NCBI GenBank assembly: GCA_004212155.1
Contig: RXIG01000016.1
Coordinates: 1 to 13,763 of the forward strand
Length of the DNA: 13,763 nt
Direction of reading: 5' to 3'
Source: an archaeon
Lineage (GTDB): Archaea > Methanobacteriota_B > Thermococci > Methanofastidiosales > NM3
Shown here in pieces: positions 3,999 through 8,940 of this stretch. Position 1 is the first letter of the stretch; every line of letters starts with the position of its first letter. The position numbers and the translations under genes are program-made. The notes under the pieces are model-generated. The model worked only from the letters and a program-made list of their open reading frames with translations, was not told where the DNA came from and did no database searches.

Positions 3999-4265
3999 TC
4001 ACATCTGCAATCTTCGGGCGTAGTCGTCTCTGATGGCACGTAGCAGTGCGCCATAGGTGACGTTGACAAGCGTCGTCCTTTCACGCACGGTCCGGGCGAT
4101 GAGCGAGAAGTCGATGTCATCTGGCGGCGTCGCCGTTTCAAGGTAGGGCCTGAACGCCTCCTCGAGCCCCTTGACCATGGTGATCTTACCGTCGATTGTG
4201 AGGTAGCTGCCACGTTCGCGCGGTGCTTCGCATCCGTGACATGACCTGTCGTTGCATCCTGACAT
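3999..4265 (-). CDS. Small hypothetical protein (88 aa) with Cys/His-rich N-terminus
   Basis: MSGCNDRSCHGC followed by a plausible globular segment (YLTIDGKITMVKGLEEAF...). Fills the gap convergent to eno. ATG 4265 has GTGA just upstream. Confidence 0.6.
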   Translation of the reverse strand: MSGCNDRSCHGCEAPRERGSYLTIDGKITMVKGLEEAFRPYLETATPPDDIDFSLIARTVRERTTLVNVTYGALLRAIRDDYARRLQM

Positions 4266-4318
4266 GTGTATCACTACTAGACTGTACGAAGTGTGCATTG
4301 AAAAGTATTGTGTAAACG

Positions 4319-4353
4319 AAAAAGAGAAAAAATATGAGCGACATGCGTCGCTC
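4319..4353 (-). terminator. Hairpin plus T-tract terminator after aroA'
   Basis: Minus strand GAGCGAC-GCAT-GTCGCTC (7-bp stem) followed by ATATTTTTTCTCTTTTT, starting just after the stop at 4362. Confidence 0.7.
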
Positions 4354-4361
4354 GTGTCGTG

Positions 4362-5177
4362 TTACATGATGTAGCACGATGAACTCTGGTCCTTCCAACT
4401 GAGCATATCCATTGCCTCGTCGACGCTTGCGTTGCCGACGACGATGGCACGAAGTGCCCTGACGATCCCCGACGGGTTATCATGTTGAAATGCGTTCCTG
4501 CCAAGGGAGACGCCCATGGCGCCGGCCTCCATGGCCCCATGGACCATCGTGAGCAGTTCCCTGTCGTTTGCGCATTTCGGTCCGCCCGCGATGACGATGG
4601 GGACCGGACATCCGCGCACGACGTCCTTGAACGTGTCGACAGAGCCGGTGTAGTTGGTCTTGACGATGTCAGCGCCAAGCTCGGCCCCCACGCGGGCGGC
4701 CAGTGAGACCGCTTCGGGGTCGAGTCCGTTGTCGATGTTCTTGCCGCGCGGGTACATCATTGCCAGAAGCGGCATGCCGTGCAGGTCGCACTGCTCGGCT
4801 ATCGAACCGAGCGCCGAGAGCATCTCGGTCTCACCCGGGCTTCCGCCCACGTTGACGTGCACCGAGACAGCCTCAGCTCCGAGGCGCAGTGCCTCGTTGA
4901 CACTTCCGACGATGACCTTGTGGTCGGGGTCGGCGGCGACCTTCGTGCTCGCGGAGAGATGCATTATCATGCCACAGCGCGTTGGTTCGTGGAGATGGCG
5001 TATGATCCCCTTGTGCAACACGACTGCTGACGCTCCACCCTCATCGATGGTGGATACGGTCTTATCCATGTTGGCAAGGCCGGCTATCGGTCCCACGGTC
5101 ACGCCATGGTCCATCGGTATGATCACCGCCTTACCCTTTTCTGTAATGCGGTGCATACGCACCAGCTTCCCATTCAT
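4362..5177 (-). CDS. aroA': 2-amino-3,7-dideoxy-D-threo-hept-6-ulosonate (ADH) synthase, class I aldolase of the DhnA/MJ0400 family
   Basis: [69 protein letters not shown] (Schiff-base Lys), IAGGPK, GRNAFQH. SD GGAGGTG at 5189-5183. The aromatic-rich leader peptide upstream supports the AroA' rather than FBP-aldolase role. Confidence 0.85.
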
Positions 5178-5504
5178 AGCGACACCTCCAGTGTGTCTGC
5201 CAGCAGCCGGGCCGTCTCGCCCTCCGTGGCGTGCAATAGAAGAGCTGTCTTGTTGAGTATCCTGTGCGATACTACGTCCTCGACATCATTGTGTCGTGCC
5301 GGGGAAAAAACATCGTCCTCGGGCCGTGGGCTCCCAAACATGGCGCCCGAGATAAAGACGTTCCCCCCTTTTGTGCTCAATTCCTGTTCCTAGTTTCATG
5401 TGGTTCACCATTGTCGATGGCAACGGCTCTCCAAAATCATGACAGTGCAGCTCGAAAGCATAGTCCATAATCCTGGAGAACCATGCTTTCTACTAATAGT
5501 AGAA
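5178..5504 (-). promoter_or_regulatory. Structured 5' leader / putative attenuator of aroA'
   Basis: Overlapping stems read by eye: 5504-5488; 5490-5478 with 5466-5454; 5484-5466 with 5441-5423; and a long hairpin 5368-5301 containing T6 (5310-5305). Confidence 0.65.
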
Positions 5505-5567
5505 GAAACCAAAGCGATAGCTGGACCCCTCGTTCCCACAGTGCCAAGACATGTTAGAGAGATTCAT
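5493..5567 (-). CDS. Putative aromatic-amino-acid leader peptide MNLSNMSWHCGNEGSSYRFGFFYY (24 aa)
   Basis: ATG 5567 lies 28 nt downstream of TTTATAAA. Seven aromatic codons (1 Trp, 3 Phe, 3 Tyr), six of them in the last eight codons. Ends in tandem TAG TAG. In-frame second ATG at 5552. Too short for the ORF track. Confidence 0.75.
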   Translation of the reverse strand: MNLSNMSWHCGNEGSSYRFGFFYY

Positions 5568-5595
5568 ACTATCAAGACGGAATGTCATTCAAGAG

Positions 5596-5610
5596 TTTAT
5601 AAATGTTTCC
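5596..5610 (-). promoter_or_regulatory. Archaeal BRE/TATA promoter of the leader-aroA' transcript
   Basis: Minus strand GGAAACA-TTTATAAA (TATA 5603-5596), located just downstream of a terminator. Confidence 0.7.
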
Positions 5611-5654
5611 CTGCTGAGGACGTCATAAAATATGGATGTAGTCATGAAAATGAT

Positions 5655-5688
5655 AAAAAAGAGGGACCCGTTTAGGCGTTCGGGTCCC
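5655..5688 (-). terminator. Hairpin plus T-tract terminator ending the lipoprotein operon
   Basis: Minus strand GGGACCCG-N10-CGGGTCCC (8-bp stem, stop codon in the loop) followed by TCTTTTTT. Confidence 0.75.
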
Positions 5689-6418
5689 AGATGGATTCTA
5701 TCTTTGTGACGTCTTCATAAATCGTACCTTCGATGGTGACGGAGAACAGACCGTCCTCGTAGGCGACTATGGCGGAATCCCGTGCATCGATGGGGAACGT
5801 CTCTGTGCCGCCCTCATGATGGATCGCAAACGTCTGGGACTGCGGATAGTAGGCCACCTTCGTGAAGAGCTCGGCCACGGTGAAGTCGTTGTCCTTTTCG
5901 GTGAACTCGCGTATGTCCCTAATGGAGACATAGATCTCGTTGGTGACGTCGCCGGTGATGCCAAGCACCTCGTCCTCAGTGAGGGGCTCGACGGTGACGA
6001 CCTGCTTCATCCAGTTGCAGGCGCATCCGATGTCGACGGCAAGCATCACGGGGCCGTCGTTGTCGCCGAGGCGTTCTCCCTCCCTGTAGAGGGCCAGGAT
6101 GGCCGAGTCTACGTCTGCTCGGTCGAACGAGAGGATGTAGCCGTCCTCTGCGATGAAGTTTATTATCGAGGCGTCTTCCGCTGTGCTGACGTTCGCAAGA
6201 ACGCTCGTCAGGGCGGCACCTGAGTATTCCTCGGTCCCTTCCACAAGCTGCTTCTCGACCGTCTTCTCAGGCATGTCATCGAGATCCTGGTAGGTGAACG
6301 TGGTGGGATTGTCGACTGCGCCAATCACATCGACATCCCACTCTATGCTCTCCTCGCCACCGATGCATCCGCAACAGAGCACTGCGACAACCGCTATGGC
6401 AATGAGTGCACGTTTCAT
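5672..6418 (-). CDS. Lipoprotein with molybdopterin-oxidoreductase-like (sulfite oxidase/MsrP-fold) domain plus degenerate second domain
   Basis: Signal peptide and lipobox (VLCCGC-I). V.G.V..P.TFTYQDL..MP, YSGAAL, FIAEDGY, DGPVML, NWMKQVVTVE. SD AGGTGG upstream. Confidence 0.75.
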   Translation of the reverse strand: MKRALIAIAVVAVLCCGCIGGEESIEWDVDVIGAVDNPTTFTYQDLDDMPEKTVEKQLVEGTEEYSGAALTSVLANVSTAEDASIINFIAEDGYILSFDRADVDSAILALYREGERLGDNDGPVMLAVDIGCACNWMKQVVTVEPLTEDEVLGITGDVTNEIYVSIRDIREFTEKDNDFTVAELFTKVAYYPQSQTFAIHHEGGTETFPIDARDSAIVAYEDGLFSVTIEGTIYEDVTKIESIWDPNA

Positions 6419-7282
6419 CTATCCACCTGTTAAGACCTGTATCTCGACGAGATTGCCTACCCAGTTGCTCTTGGAGAGGCTGGGAGCTATGATGCGAAGG
6501 GGGCCACCCTCTTCCTCTGCAATCTCCTCGCCGCCGGCGTGCCAGGCGATGATAGCATCTGCGAGGTCGGCATATGCCGCTTCCTTGTTGTATCCATCGC
6601 TTGCAAAGAACGTTACCGTGACTGCGTTCTCCACTTCGAGATGTACCATGAGGTCGCTGATCAGGGCACCGCCCCACTCGACATCGTCAGCGGTCACGGT
6701 GGTGTAGTCAAGGGATTGCAGTTCAGAAAGACCGACTTCGGAGGATTGCCCATCGACGCTCACCGCGAGCGAGTACGTTTCCTGGGGTGCCGTGGCGACC
6801 TCTATCCTCACGAGATTCTGGATCCACGTGTTGGCGGGAAGGCCGGGTGCGACGAATCGGATGGGCCCACCGTCCTCTTCGGGGATGGTGTCGCCGTTCT
6901 CGTCGTGCCATGCGAGCATGGCATCCTGGAGCTGAGCGTACTCGAGTTCCTTCTCGTAGCCGTCAAGGGCGACCATGGTGACCATCTGGGCGTCCTCGAC
7001 GCCAATGTGGTCCATGAATCTGTAGAACGAGGTGCCACCCCACTGGGTCTGGATCTCGGCGCCCGTCTTCTTGACCATCGTCGCGGTGATGGTCTCATAT
7101 TCGAGGGACTGTATCTCCGAGAGGCCGACCTCGGTGGGTGTCCCACCATCGACCGATACCACCAGGAAGTAGGTGTCTGGCGGGGCAGTAGTAGTGCTTT
7201 CGGAATCGTCCGAGGAAATGCACCCTGCGACCAGGGCGGTCACAAGGCATAGTGCAAGCAAGATTGGGAGTTTGCGCTGCAT
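6419..7282 (-). CDS. Lipoprotein with two tandem molybdopterin-oxidoreductase-like domains
   Basis: Lipobox LVAGC-I and a Ser/Thr/Pro linker. Two copies of WGG...A.DGY.KE...AWH...GGP(I/L)R..AP...W..NLV.I.V. Confidence 0.8.
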   Translation of the reverse strand: MQRKLPILLALCLVTALVAGCISSDDSESTTTAPPDTYFLVVSVDGGTPTEVGLSEIQSLEYETITATMVKKTGAEIQTQWGGTSFYRFMDHIGVEDAQMVTMVALDGYEKELEYAQLQDAMLAWHDENGDTIPEEDGGPIRFVAPGLPANTWIQNLVRIEVATAPQETYSLAVSVDGQSSEVGLSELQSLDYTTVTADDVEWGGALISDLMVHLEVENAVTVTFFASDGYNKEAAYADLADAIIAWHAGGEEIAEEEGGPLRIIAPSLSKSNWVGNLVEIQVLTGG

Positions 7283-7304
7283 GAACTATACGATGCACCC
7301 TTAT

Positions 7305-7336
7305 TTTATAAACGTTATGTCATATTGAAAATAACG
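7305..7336 (-). promoter_or_regulatory. TATA box with abutting ModE-like operator
   Basis: TTTATAAA at 7305-7312, 22 nt before ATG 7282. Palindrome CGTTAT-N12-ATAACG at 7313-7336, extendable to AAACGTTAT...ATAACGTTT. Confidence 0.75.
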
Positions 7337-7340
7337 TTTC

Positions 7341-8384
7341 TCATTCCTCGATGAGGTTCTTGAGTTGCGCTGGCAGGTTCTCGTAGGCGTCGGTCTCGGG
7401 ATCCATCGTCGGGAGATAGGTCTCCTTGAAGATTGCCCTCCCCTCACCGGCGATGAGGAACTCGACGAAGTCCCTGGCCTCGTCCTCGTGCGGCGCCTCG
7501 AACGGTATCGTGAGGCCGTAGATGGTGGGATGGGCTTTGAACTCGGGCGTTATTGATGCGAATCGCTGGAACGCGAGGCGCACCCGCGCGCTGTGCTCGA
7601 GCTGTGTGAAGTCGTCGTTTCCTAGGTCTATCTGCGAGGGAAGCGGCAGGAATTCGAGCCCGAAGTACTCTGACACGTTCTCGTACTCGAACGCGTAGTC
7701 GATGCCGCCAGTCTCGAGGAGCGAGAGCAGCTGCACGCTGCTGCCGCGAAGCGAGATGCGACCGCCCGACGTTTCGAGGATCTCGGGGATCTTGATGACG
7801 TACTCATCCGGGGTCTCCTCCACGTCGATGGGCGTCGTGAACTGCCCGCCATAGATGTCCTCGAATATCGTCGGGTCATCGTAGTAATCCTCTGCGAGCT
7901 GCACGATCATGAGCGTGCGGTAGCCGCTCGCATCGAATCGTGGGTCGGAAAGGCCGAGCGCCACATCGTCGCGTGAGAATATCTCGTACCAGGTGTCCTG
8001 ATTGATCTCGTCGGCATATGCGCTGTCGGGGCGATAGGCTATGCCGAGGCGATTGGTGGCAAACTGGATATACCAGTCACTGTGCGGCGGATCCCCATAC
8101 ATGAGCAAAGGTATGAGCGAATAATCGGCGACGGCCAGCACGTCGGCGTCACGGCCGAGCTCTGCCACCTGGCGAAGCACCTGTATGCTGCCGTGCCCCT
8201 CGATGAGCACATCGACGTCGGGATGATCTGCCTCGTATGCCTCCTCGATATGGTCCATGGACGCCAGGAGGCTGCCTGCGCAGATCACCGTGAGCGTCGT
8301 GGTCTCGGGACGTGTGGCATACCATATGCCCGATCCGAGCACGAGCACTATGACCGCTATCGCTGCGATGTGTGACCTGTTCAT
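7341..8384 (-). CDS. wtpA: Tungstate/molybdate ABC transporter substrate-binding protein WtpA
   Basis: N-terminal membrane anchor; AGSL, GHGSIQVLRQV, DVLAVADY, FATN, SDPRFDASGYR, IDYAFEY, LPSQIDLG, IYGLTIP. Start at ATG 8384 or GTG 8393. Confidence 0.85.
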   Translation of the reverse strand: MNRSHIAAIAVIVLVLGSGIWYATRPETTTLTVICAGSLLASMDHIEEAYEADHPDVDVLIEGHGSIQVLRQVAELGRDADVLAVADYSLIPLLMYGDPPHSDWYIQFATNRLGIAYRPDSAYADEINQDTWYEIFSRDDVALGLSDPRFDASGYRTLMIVQLAEDYYDDPTIFEDIYGGQFTTPIDVEETPDEYVIKIPEILETSGGRISLRGSSVQLLSLLETGGIDYAFEYENVSEYFGLEFLPLPSQIDLGNDDFTQLEHSARVRLAFQRFASITPEFKAHPTIYGLTIPFEAPHEDEARDFVEFLIAGEGRAIFKETYLPTMDPETDAYENLPAQLKNLIEE

Positions 8385-8394
8385 CTCTATCACG

Positions 8395-8940
8395 TTAGTT
8401 CATGGTGAGTACTTCGATGGTGCTTACGAATCGCACCCACCAGTGGCCGTCGGTGATGGGGCCGTCAGGCCCGATGACGGCGATGCGAAGCGGTCCGCCG
8501 TACTCCTCCGGTATCGATTCGCCGCCCTCCTCGTAGGCGAGGATCATCTGCAGATCGCCTGCCGGCACTTCCCCGCCCTGCTCATTGTAGGTGATGAAGT
8601 CGCCCTCGACGAACTGTCTGTAGGAGAAGGTGACCGAGTAGCCGTCCGGTGCGGTCACGCGTATGGCGCTGTTCTCGGTTATCTCCCTGTCGAGCTCGTA
8701 GAGCGCGGTGAGCGGAACGCCGGTGAACTCCATGGGGAGCGTTATCTGTCCGACGCTGTTTTTCCTGCCGCCCTCGCCCGTGACCGCAGGCATGTCCTTG
8801 AGGTCGTCGAGGGTGAGCGTCTGCGTCTCGTCGCCAACATAAGTGAGCTCCACCGACTCGCCGTCGCCAGTGATGCAGCCGGTCGTAAGTAGCATGGTCG
8901 CCACAAGGGCGATCAGGGGCAATGTGAACCATCTCTTCAT
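8395..8940 (-). CDS. Lipoprotein with a single molybdopterin-oxidoreductase-like domain
   Basis: Lipobox LTTGC-I; LTLDDLKDMP, FTGVPL, VTAPDGYSVTF, MILAYE, GGPLRI, WVRFVSTIEV. Ends immediately before wtpA. Confidence 0.8.
   Translation of the reverse strand: MKRWFTLPLIALVATMLLTTGCITGDGESVELTYVGDETQTLTLDDLKDMPAVTGEGGRKNSVGQITLPMEFTGVPLTALYELDREITENSAIRVTAPDGYSVTFSYRQFVEGDFITYNEQGGEVPAGDLQMILAYEEGGESIPEEYGGPLRIAVIGPDGPITDGHWWVRFVSTIEVLTMN

What the first reader, a model, noticed from the sequence alone, without database searches (positions are those of the whole stretch)
5423..5504. Mutually exclusive RNA stems start at the leader peptide's FYY-stop codons
Minus strand. Stem A: TTCTACTA-T-TAGTAGAA (5504-5488) covers Phe-Tyr-Tyr-stop-stop. 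Stem B: GAAAGCATGGTTC (5490-5478) with GGACTATGCTTTC (5466-5454), 13 bp including 2 G-U, overlaps A. Stem C: ATGGTTCTCCAGGATTATG (5484-5466) with CATGATTTTGGAGAGCCGT (5441-5423), 19 contiguous pairs including G-U, is incompatible with B but compatible with A. All deviations from Watson-Crick are G-U on this strand, as expected for RNA-level selection. Ribosome position at the aromatic codons versus the stop could choose between B and C.
Basis: partly seen in the sequence, partly recalled or inferred. Interest (0 to 1): 0.8.

Follow-up and report, generated by a model that had tools for sequence, protein, structure and literature searches.

The report
Aromatic leader-peptide switch in an archaeon
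A tiny upstream gene packed with phenylalanine, tyrosine and tryptophan codons, followed by competing RNA hairpins and a second tiny gene, sits in front of the first enzyme of aromatic amino-acid synthesis in an uncultured archaeon and looks like a ribosome-based amino-acid sensor of a kind so far established only in bacteria.

Summary
The sister species has no substitution across 141 nt here. The organism is an archaeon. The downstream gene is ADH synthase (aroA'), the first step of the archaeal aromatic pathway.

The stems are one part of a ~430-nt leader kept in 8 distinct aroA' leaders of one family. The window's genus carries a second copy before the separately placed aroB'. The leader holds:
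- a BRE/TATA promoter
- a near-leaderless 24-28-codon ORF1 ending in aromatic codons
- a hairpin domain starting just after its stop
- a long-range helix from the Trp/Phe codons to a box beside ORF2's ribosome site
- ORF2, read in one constant frame through a conserved G-rich hairpin and U-tract

Best reading: ribosome-mediated attenuation by aromatic aminoacyl-tRNA supply, relayed through ORF2. The B-versus-C choice is unproven: C wins in every modelled state, B and C are genus-specific, and no antiterminator pairs with the hairpin.

Seven literature searches found no archaeal precedent. Unchecked notes of this scan report similar ORFs in other archaea.

The parts
5596..5611 (-). Archaeal-type promoter element: TATA box 5603-5596 with a purine-rich BRE just upstream (5611-5604). 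It ends 28 nt before the ORF1 start, so the mRNA should be leaderless or nearly so.
   Evidence: Read. The same element stands at the same distance in all 8 aroA' leaders and in the aroB' leaders. The sigma-70 scan found no promoter-like site here. The start site is inferred, not measured.
5493..5567 (-). ORF1, the leader peptide: 24 codons plus stop, with a second stop at 5492-5490. Six of the last 8 residues are aromatic and a Trp lies further upstream.
   Evidence: An ORF of 24-28 codons ends at the same distance from the TATA box in all 8 leaders, using all three stop codons. Aromatic residues make up 58 of 96 positions in the last 8 codons of 12 leader ORFs, against 7.9% in 1176 long ORFs of this genome. 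Between the window and L037 the N-terminal half changes freely, while the last 12 codons are identical base for base.
5488..5504 (-). Stem A: a small hairpin over the Phe-Tyr-Tyr-stop-stop codons.
   Evidence: -5.6 kcal/mol, z -2.8, 5 of 200 shuffles as good.
5454..5490 (-). Stem B: arms 5490-5478 and 5466-5454. It starts 3 nt after the first stop codon.
   Evidence: -17.9 kcal/mol, z -4.8. It appears only in short transcript prefixes and when the ribosome is not at the stop. Natural variants at 5465 and 5464 keep it.
5420..5486 (-). Stem C: arms 5484-5466 and 5441-5423, extended in the MFE. Its 3' arm contains a Shine-Dalgarno-like purine run (5432-5427) that is paired with a pyrimidine run in the 5' arm.
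   Evidence: -31.7 kcal/mol, z -5.3. The block holding the purine run is invariant in all four leaders of the aroA'/aroB' alignment, and in the aroB' leader it lies 7-8 nt before the ORF2 start. The variant at 5473 turns a G-U into an A-U.
5401..5511 (-). Long-range closing helix. ORF1 codons at 5511-5507 pair with 5405-5401, which lie between the ORF2 Shine-Dalgarno sequence and its start. An alternative register pairs 5501-5495 with 5412-5406, which covers the Shine-Dalgarno sequence itself.
   Evidence: MFE of the 118-nt domain: -45.7 kcal/mol, z -5.9. The alternative register is in the MFE of the longer fold. The homologous helix between the Trp-Phe codons and a conserved box is the consensus of the 6 leaders other than the window and L037, and it is in all 6 of their MFEs.
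5286..5399 (-). ORF2: 37 codons plus stop, with a Shine-Dalgarno sequence at 5409-5405. In-frame alternative starts lie at 5411 and 5423.
   Evidence: a Shine-Dalgarno sequence and ATG at 5-8 nt spacing in all 8 leaders, and the same reading frame through the G-rich box and the U-tract. The insert between the conserved strands is 6, 9, 24, 30 or 39 nt, a multiple of 3 in 10 of 10 leaders.
5301..5368 (-). G-rich-box hairpin inside ORF2. P1 pairs the G-rich run with the U-tract and following C's (U-tract 5310-5305). P2 is 4 bp. Next come a conserved 5-6-nt loop or internal loop and a variable P3 (5351-5345 with 5324-5318).
   Evidence: In P1 and P2, 96.7% of 120 cells are paired, against 80% or less when the partner is slid. 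One pair shows a compensatory change. Alone, its energy is not better than shuffles (z -0.8). Covariance model R1 finds it only before aroA' and aroB'.
5234..5296 (-). Two small hairpins (5296-5281, holding the ORF2 stop in its loop, and 5272-5257), followed by a conserved T-rich box (5246-5234).
   Evidence: Seen by eye in the sequences printed: hairpins at matching places with different sequences, and a similar box in 7 leaders. The automatic alignment was too poor to count pairs. Not tested further.
4362..5177 (-). aroA': 2-amino-3,7-dideoxy-D-threo-hept-6-ulosonate (ADH) synthase. This is the regulated gene. Its Shine-Dalgarno sequence is at 5189-5183.
   Evidence: NCBIfam TIGR01949 equivalog, 333 bits against a cut-off of 299, and NF005556 at 355 bits. 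Pfam DeoC.

Best explanation
This is the 5' leader of the aroA' (ADH synthase) mRNA of an archaeon. It works as a ribosome-mediated sensor of Phe-, Tyr- and Trp-tRNA supply.

Inferred sequence of events:
1. Transcription starts a few bases before ORF1, which is translated at once.
2. If aromatic aminoacyl-tRNAs are scarce, the ribosome stalls on the aromatic codons at the end of ORF1. It then covers the RNA that would otherwise form stem A and the long-range helix to the ORF2 ribosome site.
3. The hairpin domain just after the stop folds: stem B first, then stem C in this genus.
4. The ORF2 start region stays open and ORF2 is translated.
5. The ORF2 ribosome runs through the conserved G-rich hairpin and its U-tract. 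This keeps that element from stopping transcription, either intrinsically or through the archaeal termination factor, so aroA' is made.
6. If aromatic amino acids are plentiful, the ORF1 ribosome reaches the stop and leaves. The ORF1 codons pair with the ORF2 site, ORF2 is not read, the hairpin and U-tract form, and expression falls.

Shown here: the parts, their conservation, their order, the reading frames and the stability of the helices. Inferred: the start site, the stalling, the sign of the control, and whether the output is termination or something else.
For: Archaeon: two TBP repeats in the genome, and all 5 true relatives carry archaeal record titles.

Gene identity: ADH synthase above the curated cut-off.

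ORF1: present in 8 of 8 distinct aroA' leaders at a fixed distance from the BRE/TATA element, with varying stop codons. Aromatic residues fill 58 of 96 tail positions against a 7.9% background.

Constraint: no substitution in 5533-5393 against the sister species, while third codon positions of aroA' differ at 16 of 145. By my own arithmetic the chance is about 1e-7.

Stems: z -4.8 to -5.9, and natural variants keep them.

Shared design: a hairpin starts 3-6 nt after the ORF1 stop in the five leaders modelled (the window, L035, L038, L039, L040). It is open to a ribosome stalled 3 or more codons upstream and blocked by one at the stop.

Long-range helix: the pairing of the Trp/Phe codons with a box beside the ORF2 site is the consensus of 6 leaders. 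It is in 6 of 6 MFEs and in the window's 118-nt MFE.

ORF2: conserved Shine-Dalgarno sequence and start, one frame throughout, and insert lengths that are multiples of 3 in 10 of 10 leaders.

Module moves with the genes: aroB' follows aroA' in G002-G005. In G000 and G001 it lies elsewhere and has its own copy of ORF1, ORF2 and the hairpin.

T-runs mark gene ends in this genome: runs of 5 or more T in 17% of 60-nt stretches after long ORFs, against 3% inside them.
Against: Equilibrium folding with ribosome footprints does not show consistent unmasking of the ORF2 site. The unpaired probability rises from 0.24 to 0.63 in the window but hardly changes, or falls, in L037, L035, L040, L046, L044 and the aroB' leaders.

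Stem C is the end state with or without a stalled ribosome.

P1 and P2 of the hairpin are almost invariant, so covariation is weak: one pair with a compensatory change, and 27 of 500 shuffles score as high. Alone, the hairpin is no more stable than shuffles (z -0.8).

The run of U at the tract is only 4 long in 5 of the 8 aroA' leaders and in both aroB' leaders. Archaeal termination is not known to need hairpins (recalled).

There are only 10 related leaders, and they are kin.

RNA evidence is thin: one 165-nt contig at depth 2.7 over 5339-5503 in one RNA library, which may hold DNA.

The domain is significantly stable in 4 of 7 other leaders, not in all.

Nothing was measured in cells.
Confidence: 0.6

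Rival explanations
1. A classical bacterial-style attenuator in which the choice between stems B and C is itself the decision, and one of them acts as antiterminator of the downstream hairpin and U-tract.
For: B and C exclude each other and each is far more stable than shuffles. B is blocked by a ribosome at the stop and allowed by one stalled upstream. A hairpin followed by a U-tract lies downstream.
Against: No segment between ORF1 and ORF2 is more complementary to the 5' strand of the hairpin than shuffled sequence: z -0.6 to +1.4 in 8 of 8 leaders. The hairpin forms in every modelled state. C beats B by about 14 kcal/mol and has an 11-nt toehold in B's loop, so B should be short-lived. B and C are not kept outside the genus.
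Confidence: 0.1
2. Purely translational control. Stalling in ORF1 changes initiation at ORF2 (or reinitiation after ORF1), and ORF2 translation alters folding, stability or ribosome loading of the aroA' message. No transcription termination is involved. In the window, stem C would act as a helix that sequesters a Shine-Dalgarno sequence.
For: The 3' arm of C carries a purine run that is invariant in the aroA'/aroB' alignment and serves as the ORF2 Shine-Dalgarno sequence in the aroB' leader. The ORF1 codons pair with the ORF2 ribosome site in the window and in L063. By eye, a small hairpin overlaps the aroA' Shine-Dalgarno sequence in several leaders.
Against: ORF2 ends 100-300 nt before the main start, so direct coupling is unlikely. 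The modelled accessibility changes are inconsistent. This reading does not explain why ORF2 must run through a conserved hairpin and U-tract.
Confidence: 0.15
3. The conserved G-rich hairpin is a binding site for a protein or a small molecule (riboswitch-like), and that is the real regulator. The two short ORFs are secondary or incidental.
For: The 5' strand and the loop are conserved at synonymous positions across genera, more than a mere helix or a peptide requires. The element occurs only before aroA' and aroB'.
Against: No Rfam family matches at E up to 1. The insert lengths keep the ORF2 frame in 10 of 10 leaders, and the ORF2 Shine-Dalgarno sequence and start are conserved. The aromatic bias, fixed position and varying stop codons of ORF1 are hard to explain without translation.
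Confidence: 0.1
4. ORF1 and ORF2 encode small proteins that act in trans, and the RNA helices are ordinary mRNA structure.
For: Both ORFs are conserved as open frames. ORF2 has two short conserved peptide blocks.
Against: The ORF1 N-terminal half changes at 7 of 8 consecutive residues between two species whose aroA' proteins are 98% identical. ORF2 between its conserved blocks varies in length from 2 to 13 codons. The noncoding stretch 5492-5412 is as conserved as the ORFs.
Confidence: 0.05

Closest known systems
Corynebacterium glutamicum aroR-aroF leader-peptide attenuator (Neshat et al. 2014, as described in the review PMC11802643; I read the passages found with 'aroR' and 'leader peptide')
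   Same: A short leader ORF with Phe and Tyr codons sits before the gene for the first committed step of aromatic amino-acid synthesis. Ribosome stalling at those codons raises expression.
   Different: It is bacterial, and the enzyme is DAHP synthase rather than ADH synthase. It has a single leader ORF. Here there are two upstream ORFs, an archaeal promoter, and no terminator/antiterminator pair that I could find.
E. coli trpL-trpE and pheL-pheA attenuators (textbook knowledge; also named in PMC11802643)
   Same: Regulatory codons cluster at the end of a leader ORF. Overlapping, mutually exclusive helices begin at those codons. A ribosome at the stop blocks the first downstream helix.
   Different: There, helix 2:3 competes directly with terminator 3:4. 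Here the downstream hairpin has no competing partner and lies inside a second translated ORF. None of Rfam's 4227 families, which I recall to include the bacterial leader families, matches at E up to 1.
E. coli pyrBI leader
   Same: A leader ORF is read through the attenuator hairpin and U-tract, so a closely following ribosome prevents termination.
   Different: Its input is UTP-sensitive polymerase pausing, not stalling in a separate upstream ORF. It is bacterial.
Leaderless polycysteine short ORFs of mycobacteria (bioRxiv 10.1101/834739; search listing and start of abstract only)
   Same: A leaderless short ORF rich in one kind of codon sits at the 5' end of an operon mRNA and acts as an amino-acid-responsive attenuator.
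   Different: It is bacterial and senses cysteine. I saw no report of a second relay ORF.
Multi-uORF control of yeast GCN4 and mammalian ATF4 (recalled)
   Same: Two or more upstream ORFs in series decide the expression of a downstream amino-acid-related gene.
   Different: That system works by scanning and delayed reinitiation tied to initiation-factor phosphorylation. Nothing here shows reinitiation.

Membership tests
Ribosome-mediated (leader-peptide) transcription attenuators | A short ORF on the same transcript directly upstream of an amino-acid biosynthesis gene | tested here: met
   ORF1 is at 5567-5493, between a BRE/TATA element and aroA'. It is kept in 8 of 8 aroA' leaders and 2 of 2 aroB' leaders. 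That it lies on the same transcript is inferred.
Ribosome-mediated (leader-peptide) transcription attenuators | A cluster of codons for the pathway's end product(s) in the leader ORF | tested here: met
   Aromatic residues fill 58 of 96 positions in the last 8 codons of 12 leader ORFs, against 7.9% in 1176 long ORFs. The window has 6 of 8.
Ribosome-mediated (leader-peptide) transcription attenuators | Mutually exclusive RNA helices that overlap the end of the leader ORF and depend on ribosome position | tested here: met
   Stems A, B, C and the closing helix in the window. In L035, L038, L039 and L040 there is a hairpin starting 3-6 nt after the stop; the closing helix is the consensus of the 6 leaders other than the window and L037.
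Ribosome-mediated (leader-peptide) transcription attenuators | A terminator hairpin with a U-run whose 5' strand can alternatively pair in an antiterminator | tested here: not met
   The hairpin and U-tract are present. No upstream segment is complementary to its 5' strand beyond shuffles: z -0.6 to +1.4 in 8 of 8 leaders.
Ribosome-mediated (leader-peptide) transcription attenuators | Regulated premature termination in response to aminoacyl-tRNA supply | not testable with these tools
   Only contigs of two RNA libraries were available. One 165-nt contig lies over 5339-5503.
Rfam families (4227 covariance models, release 15) | A match to any Rfam covariance model | tested here: not met
   No Rfam match at E up to 1 anywhere in the window.
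pyrBI-type attenuation (leader ORF read through the terminator) | The leader ORF spans the hairpin and the U-tract | tested here: met
   ORF2 covers the hairpin and U-tract in 10 of 10 leaders, always in the same frame.
pyrBI-type attenuation (leader ORF read through the terminator) | Coupling set by nucleotide-sensitive polymerase pausing | not tested
   No data.
Translational attenuation (ermC/cat type) | A stalled ribosome in the leader ORF opens a helix that masks the next ribosome binding site | tested here: inconclusive
   In the window the unpaired probability of the ORF2 site rises from 0.24 (free) to 0.63 (stalled). There is no consistent change in the other 9 leaders.
ADH synthase (TIGR01949), for the regulated gene | Score above the curated equivalog cut-off | tested here: met
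   333.2 bits against a cut-off of 299.45.

The most novel reading that the evidence does not exclude
This is a two-uORF relay that gives Archaea their own form of ribosome-mediated attenuation. Stalling on the aromatic codons of a leaderless first uORF keeps a long-range helix open. That licenses a second uORF, whose ribosome reads through a conserved hairpin and U-tract. By doing so it shields the nascent RNA from archaeal termination, whether intrinsic or by the FttA/aCPSF1 factor. No terminator/antiterminator competition is involved. The module was duplicated when the aroA'-aroB' operon split.
Probability: 0.3. Interest if true: 0.9.

Novelty: new variant of a known kind. Interest (0 to 1): 0.75.

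Why it matters
Leader-peptide attenuation is a textbook bacterial mechanism that depends on coupled transcription and translation. I found no published archaeal example in seven searches (and the paper read).

A conserved sensor of this kind in archaea would show that they use the ribosome to read amino-acid supply. It would also show that translation can be wired to archaeal transcription termination, which works differently from the bacterial kind.

The duplicated leader before the two separated genes gives a natural control. The second uORF running through a conserved hairpin gives a concrete hypothesis to test in genetically tractable archaea.

It also explains how the archaeal ADH-synthase route to aromatic amino acids may be regulated, on which my searches found nothing.

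Tried and rejected
Rfam: no match in the window at E up to 1.

Sigma-70 promoter and simple terminator scan of 5100-5750: no promoter-like site, and one terminator-like site on the plus strand only. The scan does not cover archaeal promoters.

Classical antiterminator: the best duplex between the 5' strand of the G-rich hairpin and everything from ORF1 to ORF2 was no better than 300 shuffles in 8 of 8 leaders.

Equilibrium folding with ribosome masks (free, stalled at three positions, at the stop): no consistent effect on the ORF2 site.

Crude genome-wide search for TATA-preceded short ORFs with biased tails: 21 hits, and only the window's ORF1 was convincing. A look-alike on contig C7 lies before a gene that I took by eye for diphthine synthase and overlaps a T-run, so I dropped it. 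That filter missed the aroB' leader, so it is insensitive.

Pattern scans:
- 1 of 6 genome matches (L036, with a bacterial record title) was chance.
- 8 of 13 metagenome matches (L041, L042, L045, L047-L050, L052) were chance.
- 3 metagenome matches repeated known leaders.

Covariance-model hits in G005:C35, G010:C37 and G017:C161 (E 0.005-0.03) have no leader features and lie in long ORFs, so I dropped them.

Automatic alignment of the stretch after ORF2 was too poor for pair counts.

Public reads:
- Two RNA libraries gave only contigs. One covers 5339-5503 and two cover 4518-5068. This shows neither transcript ends nor levels.
- No cover elsewhere in the stretch proves nothing.

The f4 leaders are not more stable than shuffles (z +0.7).

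I repeated the count from stored files.

The script stopped with an error after printing the gene comparison. Its planned comparison of the upstream gene was not done.
Full report
OBSERVATION

The short ORF ends Phe-Tyr-Tyr-stop-stop, with stops at 5495-5493 and 5492-5490.
- Stem A pairs 5504-5497 with 5495-5488.
- Stem B pairs 5490-5478 with 5466-5454: 13 pairs, 2 of them G-U.
- Stem C pairs 5484-5466 with 5441-5423: 19 contiguous pairs, 5 of them G-U.

B and C share bases and cannot coexist. A overlaps B by three bases and is compatible with C. Energies and shuffle controls:

| Element | Energy (kcal/mol) | z against shuffles | Shuffles as good |
|---|---|---|---|
| Stem A | -5.6 | -2.8 | 5 of 200 |
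| Stem B | -17.9 | -4.8 | 0 of 200 |
| Stem C | -31.7 | -5.3 | 0 of 200 |
| 5510-5418 (folds as A+C) | -39.9 | -5.4 | 0 of 200 |

WHAT THE SURROUNDINGS ARE

The gene that starts at 5177 is ADH synthase (aroA'), the first enzyme of the archaeal route to 3-dehydroquinate. It scores 333 bits on TIGR01949 against a cut-off of 299.

The window is a whole contig of a 1.49-Mb genome that is 89.8% complete. That genome encodes a TATA-binding protein. The five related records found in the genome collection are all titled as archaeal MAGs: Thermococci, Methanofastidiosia and other labels.

A TATA box with a purine-rich BRE lies at 5611-5596 and ends 28 nt before the ORF1 start. The bacterial promoter scan found nothing. 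Rfam has no match in the window at E up to 1.

RELATIVES

A search with the aroA' protein over 61 genomes gave close homologues in 5 of 6 other genomes of the family. All five have a short aromatic-ended ORF upstream.

A motif taken from these leaders found 5 true matches of 6 in the genome collection and 5 true matches of 13 in the metagenome collection. Two of the metagenome matches were new. That gives 8 distinct aroA' leaders, and all 8 have the same order of parts:
- BRE/TATA.
- An ORF1 of 24-28 codons that ends at a fixed distance from the TATA box. The stop codon varies among the three kinds.
- A structured spacer of about 90-110 nt.
- A Shine-Dalgarno sequence and ATG.
- An ORF2 of about 29-37 codons that runs through a highly conserved G-rich box, a hairpin and a short U-tract.
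- A further 100-300 nt with small hairpins and a T-rich box.
- The aroA' Shine-Dalgarno sequence and start.

ORF1 IS A REAL, CODON-BIASED LEADER ORF

In the last 8 codons of 12 leader ORFs, 58 of 96 residues are Phe, Tyr or Trp, against 7.9% in 1176 long ORFs of this genome. The window has 6 of 8. The 12 ORFs are the 8 aroA' leaders, 2 aroB' leaders and 2 from a second family.

Between the window and its sister species (L037) the leader differs at 36 of 468 positions, and the differences are clustered:
- 10 in the N-terminal half of ORF1
- 6 at the start of ORF2
- 8 in the loop of the ORF2 hairpin
- none between 5533 and 5393, apart from one inserted base at 5437

The first 435 nt of aroA' differ at 19 positions, 16 of them third codon positions. 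At that rate, 141 unchanged bases have a chance of roughly 1e-7 by my arithmetic.

The single-base insertion shows that 5492-5412 is not coding, so the constraint there acts on the RNA.

Contigs of public runs hold strain variants at 5473, 5465, 5464 and 5448. The three variants that lie in the stems change G-U to A-U or the reverse. The haplotype with 5473, 5465 and 5464 gives B -18.4 and C -32.1, against -17.9 and -31.7 for the reference. Only 21 of 68 possible transitions in 5423-5490 cost 0.5 kcal/mol or less in both stems.

WHAT IS CONSERVED IN THE SPACER

The sequences of B and C are not kept outside the genus, but two design features are.

First, a hairpin begins 3-6 nt after the ORF1 stop in the window, L035, L038, L039 and L040, the five leaders modelled. 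In prefix-by-prefix folding this hairpin forms when a ribosome is stalled three or more codons before the stop. It is blocked when the ribosome sits on the stop. In the window the hairpin at that place is B, and C takes over once its 3' arm is made.

Second, the Trp-Phe codons near the end of ORF1 pair with a conserved box just upstream of the ORF2 ribosome site. This helix is the RNAalifold consensus of the six leaders other than the window and L037, and it is in all six of their MFEs. In the window the same kind of helix pairs 5511-5507 with 5405-5401, between the ORF2 Shine-Dalgarno sequence and its start (MFE of the 118-nt domain, -45.7 kcal/mol, z -5.9). An alternative register pairs 5501-5495 with the Shine-Dalgarno sequence itself.

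The closed domain is significantly stable in 4 of the 7 other leaders tested (z -2.1 to -4.3). It is not in L038, L044 or the aroB' leader.

ORF2 AND THE G-RICH HAIRPIN

All leaders keep a Shine-Dalgarno sequence and ATG at normal spacing, and the same frame through the G-rich box and the U-tract.

The stretch between the two conserved strands is 6, 9, 24, 30 or 39 nt, a multiple of three in 10 of 10 leaders. For four independent length changes the chance is about 0.01 by my arithmetic. Translation of ORF2 is therefore under selection, while most of its peptide is free to vary.

The hairpin has four parts:
- an outer helix between the G-rich run and the U-tract
- a 4-bp second helix
- a conserved loop or internal loop
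- an optional third helix

In the outer and second helices, 96.7% of 120 cells pair, against 80% or less when the partner is slid by 1-3 columns. Only one pair shows a compensatory change, and 27 of 500 shuffles score as high. Alone, the hairpin is not more stable than shuffles (z -0.8). Its 5' strand is conserved at synonymous positions, so something beyond the helix and the peptide constrains it. I cannot say what.

THE MODULE FOLLOWS THE GENES

A covariance model of the hairpin was searched over the 34 genomes of the order. It found the six aroA' leaders and second copies in G000 contig C10 and in G001.

Those second copies lie about 250 nt upstream of aroB' (dehydroquinate synthase II, Pfam PF01959). 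They come with their own TATA box, their own aromatic-ended ORF1, a hairpin starting at the stop, and a Shine-Dalgarno sequence with an ORF2 through a minimal version of the hairpin.

In G002-G005, aroB' follows aroA' directly. In the window's species pair the operon is split and each gene has the leader. An alignment of the four leaders shows shared blocks. One is the purine run that is the ORF2 Shine-Dalgarno sequence before aroB' and that forms the 3' arm of stem C before aroA'.

WIDER SPREAD

In the phylum, 7 of 133 genomes have an ADH synthase above the cut-off, all in this family and in one other, f4.

The two f4 genomes have asd-aroA'-aroB'. About 100-170 nt before asd they carry a 14-codon ORF whose last sense codons are Phe, Tyr and then Trp or Cys. 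Those leaders are not more stable than shuffles.

HOW IT MOST LIKELY WORKS

A ribosome parked on the aromatic codons covers the ORF1 strand of stem A and of the closing helix, and leaves the post-stop hairpin free. A ribosome that reaches the stop blocks that hairpin and then leaves, which frees the ORF1 codons to pair with the ORF2 site.

The only conserved link from this sensor to the rest of the leader is ORF2, which reads through the hairpin and U-tract. I therefore favour a relay:
- Stalling in ORF1 keeps the ORF2 site open.
- The ORF2 ribosome removes or shields the hairpin and U-tract.
- Transcription, or the life of the message, continues into aroA'.

T-runs of 5 or more are enriched after genes in this genome, 17% against 3%. 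This fits U-tract termination as the output.

Steps shown: the parts, frames, conservation and stabilities. Steps inferred: the start site, the stalling, the direction of the effect and the nature of the output.

WHAT SPEAKS AGAINST IT

- Equilibrium models with ribosome masks unmask the ORF2 site clearly only in the window (0.24 to 0.63). They do not in the other nine leaders.
- C is the end state in all states.
- There is no antiterminator for the hairpin.
- The run of U at the tract is only four long in most leaders.
- Covariation is weak because the helices are nearly invariant and the sample is small and related.
- The RNA data are one low-depth contig over 5339-5503 in a library that may contain DNA.

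COMPARISON WITH WHAT IS KNOWN

In function the closest case is aroR-aroF of Corynebacterium glutamicum. There a Phe-Tyr-Phe leader peptide sits before the first enzyme of the pathway (passages read in PMC11802643). In logic the closest are the trpL and pheL attenuators of E. coli.

The defining terminator/antiterminator pair was tested and not found. So this works like an attenuator but is not a member of that structural class. Reading a leader ORF through the hairpin recalls pyrBI (recalled).

Searches for archaeal leader-peptide attenuation gave nothing relevant. A Ribo-seq paper on Methanosarcina mentions possible uORFs in 5' UTRs, and the word stem 'attenuat' does not occur in it (passages). 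Papers outside the held library, and supplements, were not seen.

Earlier notes of this scan, which are AI notes and unchecked by me, report aromatic leader ORFs before aro operons in several other archaeal lineages. None lies on look-alike sequence. The kind of element has thus been met before in this scan on other DNA. The two-uORF relay and the duplicated leader are what this locus adds.

VERDICT

This is a new variant of a known kind of control, in a domain where I found none described. Interest 0.75.

Noticed in passing
L062:1501-1760 (G000 contig C10, minus strand), upstream of aroB' at L062:344-1264: A second copy of the two-uORF leader. [quoted passage not shown] The sister genome has the same (L063).
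   Followed up: yes
L073:352-396 and L076:274-318 (family f4, before asd-aroA'-aroB'): A 14-codon ORF whose last sense codons are Phe, Tyr and then Trp or Cys, preceded by a TATA-like box. In L076 a stretch of about 21 nt covering the ORF end is repeated once more about 70 nt downstream, without a start codon. In L073 two T-runs of 6 precede the asd start. These leaders are not more stable than shuffles.
   Followed up: partly
L035, L038, L039, L040, L044, L046: first ~55 nt of ORF1 (alignment A2, columns 1-57): In the leaders other than the window and L037, the ORF1 start-codon region pairs with the Arg-Asp-Phe codons of the same ORF in a 14-bp helix. This could modulate initiation on the leaderless message. 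The window's genus lacks it.
   Followed up: no
window 5234-5296 and 5181-5197, minus strand: After ORF2 there are two small hairpins whose sequences differ between leaders while their places match, then a T-rich box. By eye, a small hairpin also overlaps the 3' part of the aroA' Shine-Dalgarno sequence. These may form a second control point.
   Followed up: partly
window 5672-8940, minus strand: Three consecutive ORFs with the molybdopterin-binding oxidoreductase domain (PF00174; 248, 287 and 181 aa) are interleaved with a solute-binding protein (350 aa). They follow an M29 peptidase and a leucine-rich-repeat-variant/HEAT protein. This is an unusual cluster of unknown role.
   Followed up: no
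window 3999-4298, minus strand: A 99-codon ORF between aroA' and the convergent enolase gene has no Pfam or NCBIfam match.
   Followed up: no
window 4300-5750 in public runs: Of the 24 runs listed, 18 runs on record as (probable) DNA hold half or more of the sampled words of 4900-5640, and most are labelled oil-field, crude-oil or subsurface. One of the two laid holds a near-identical strain with 15 differences over 1451 nt.
   Followed up: partly
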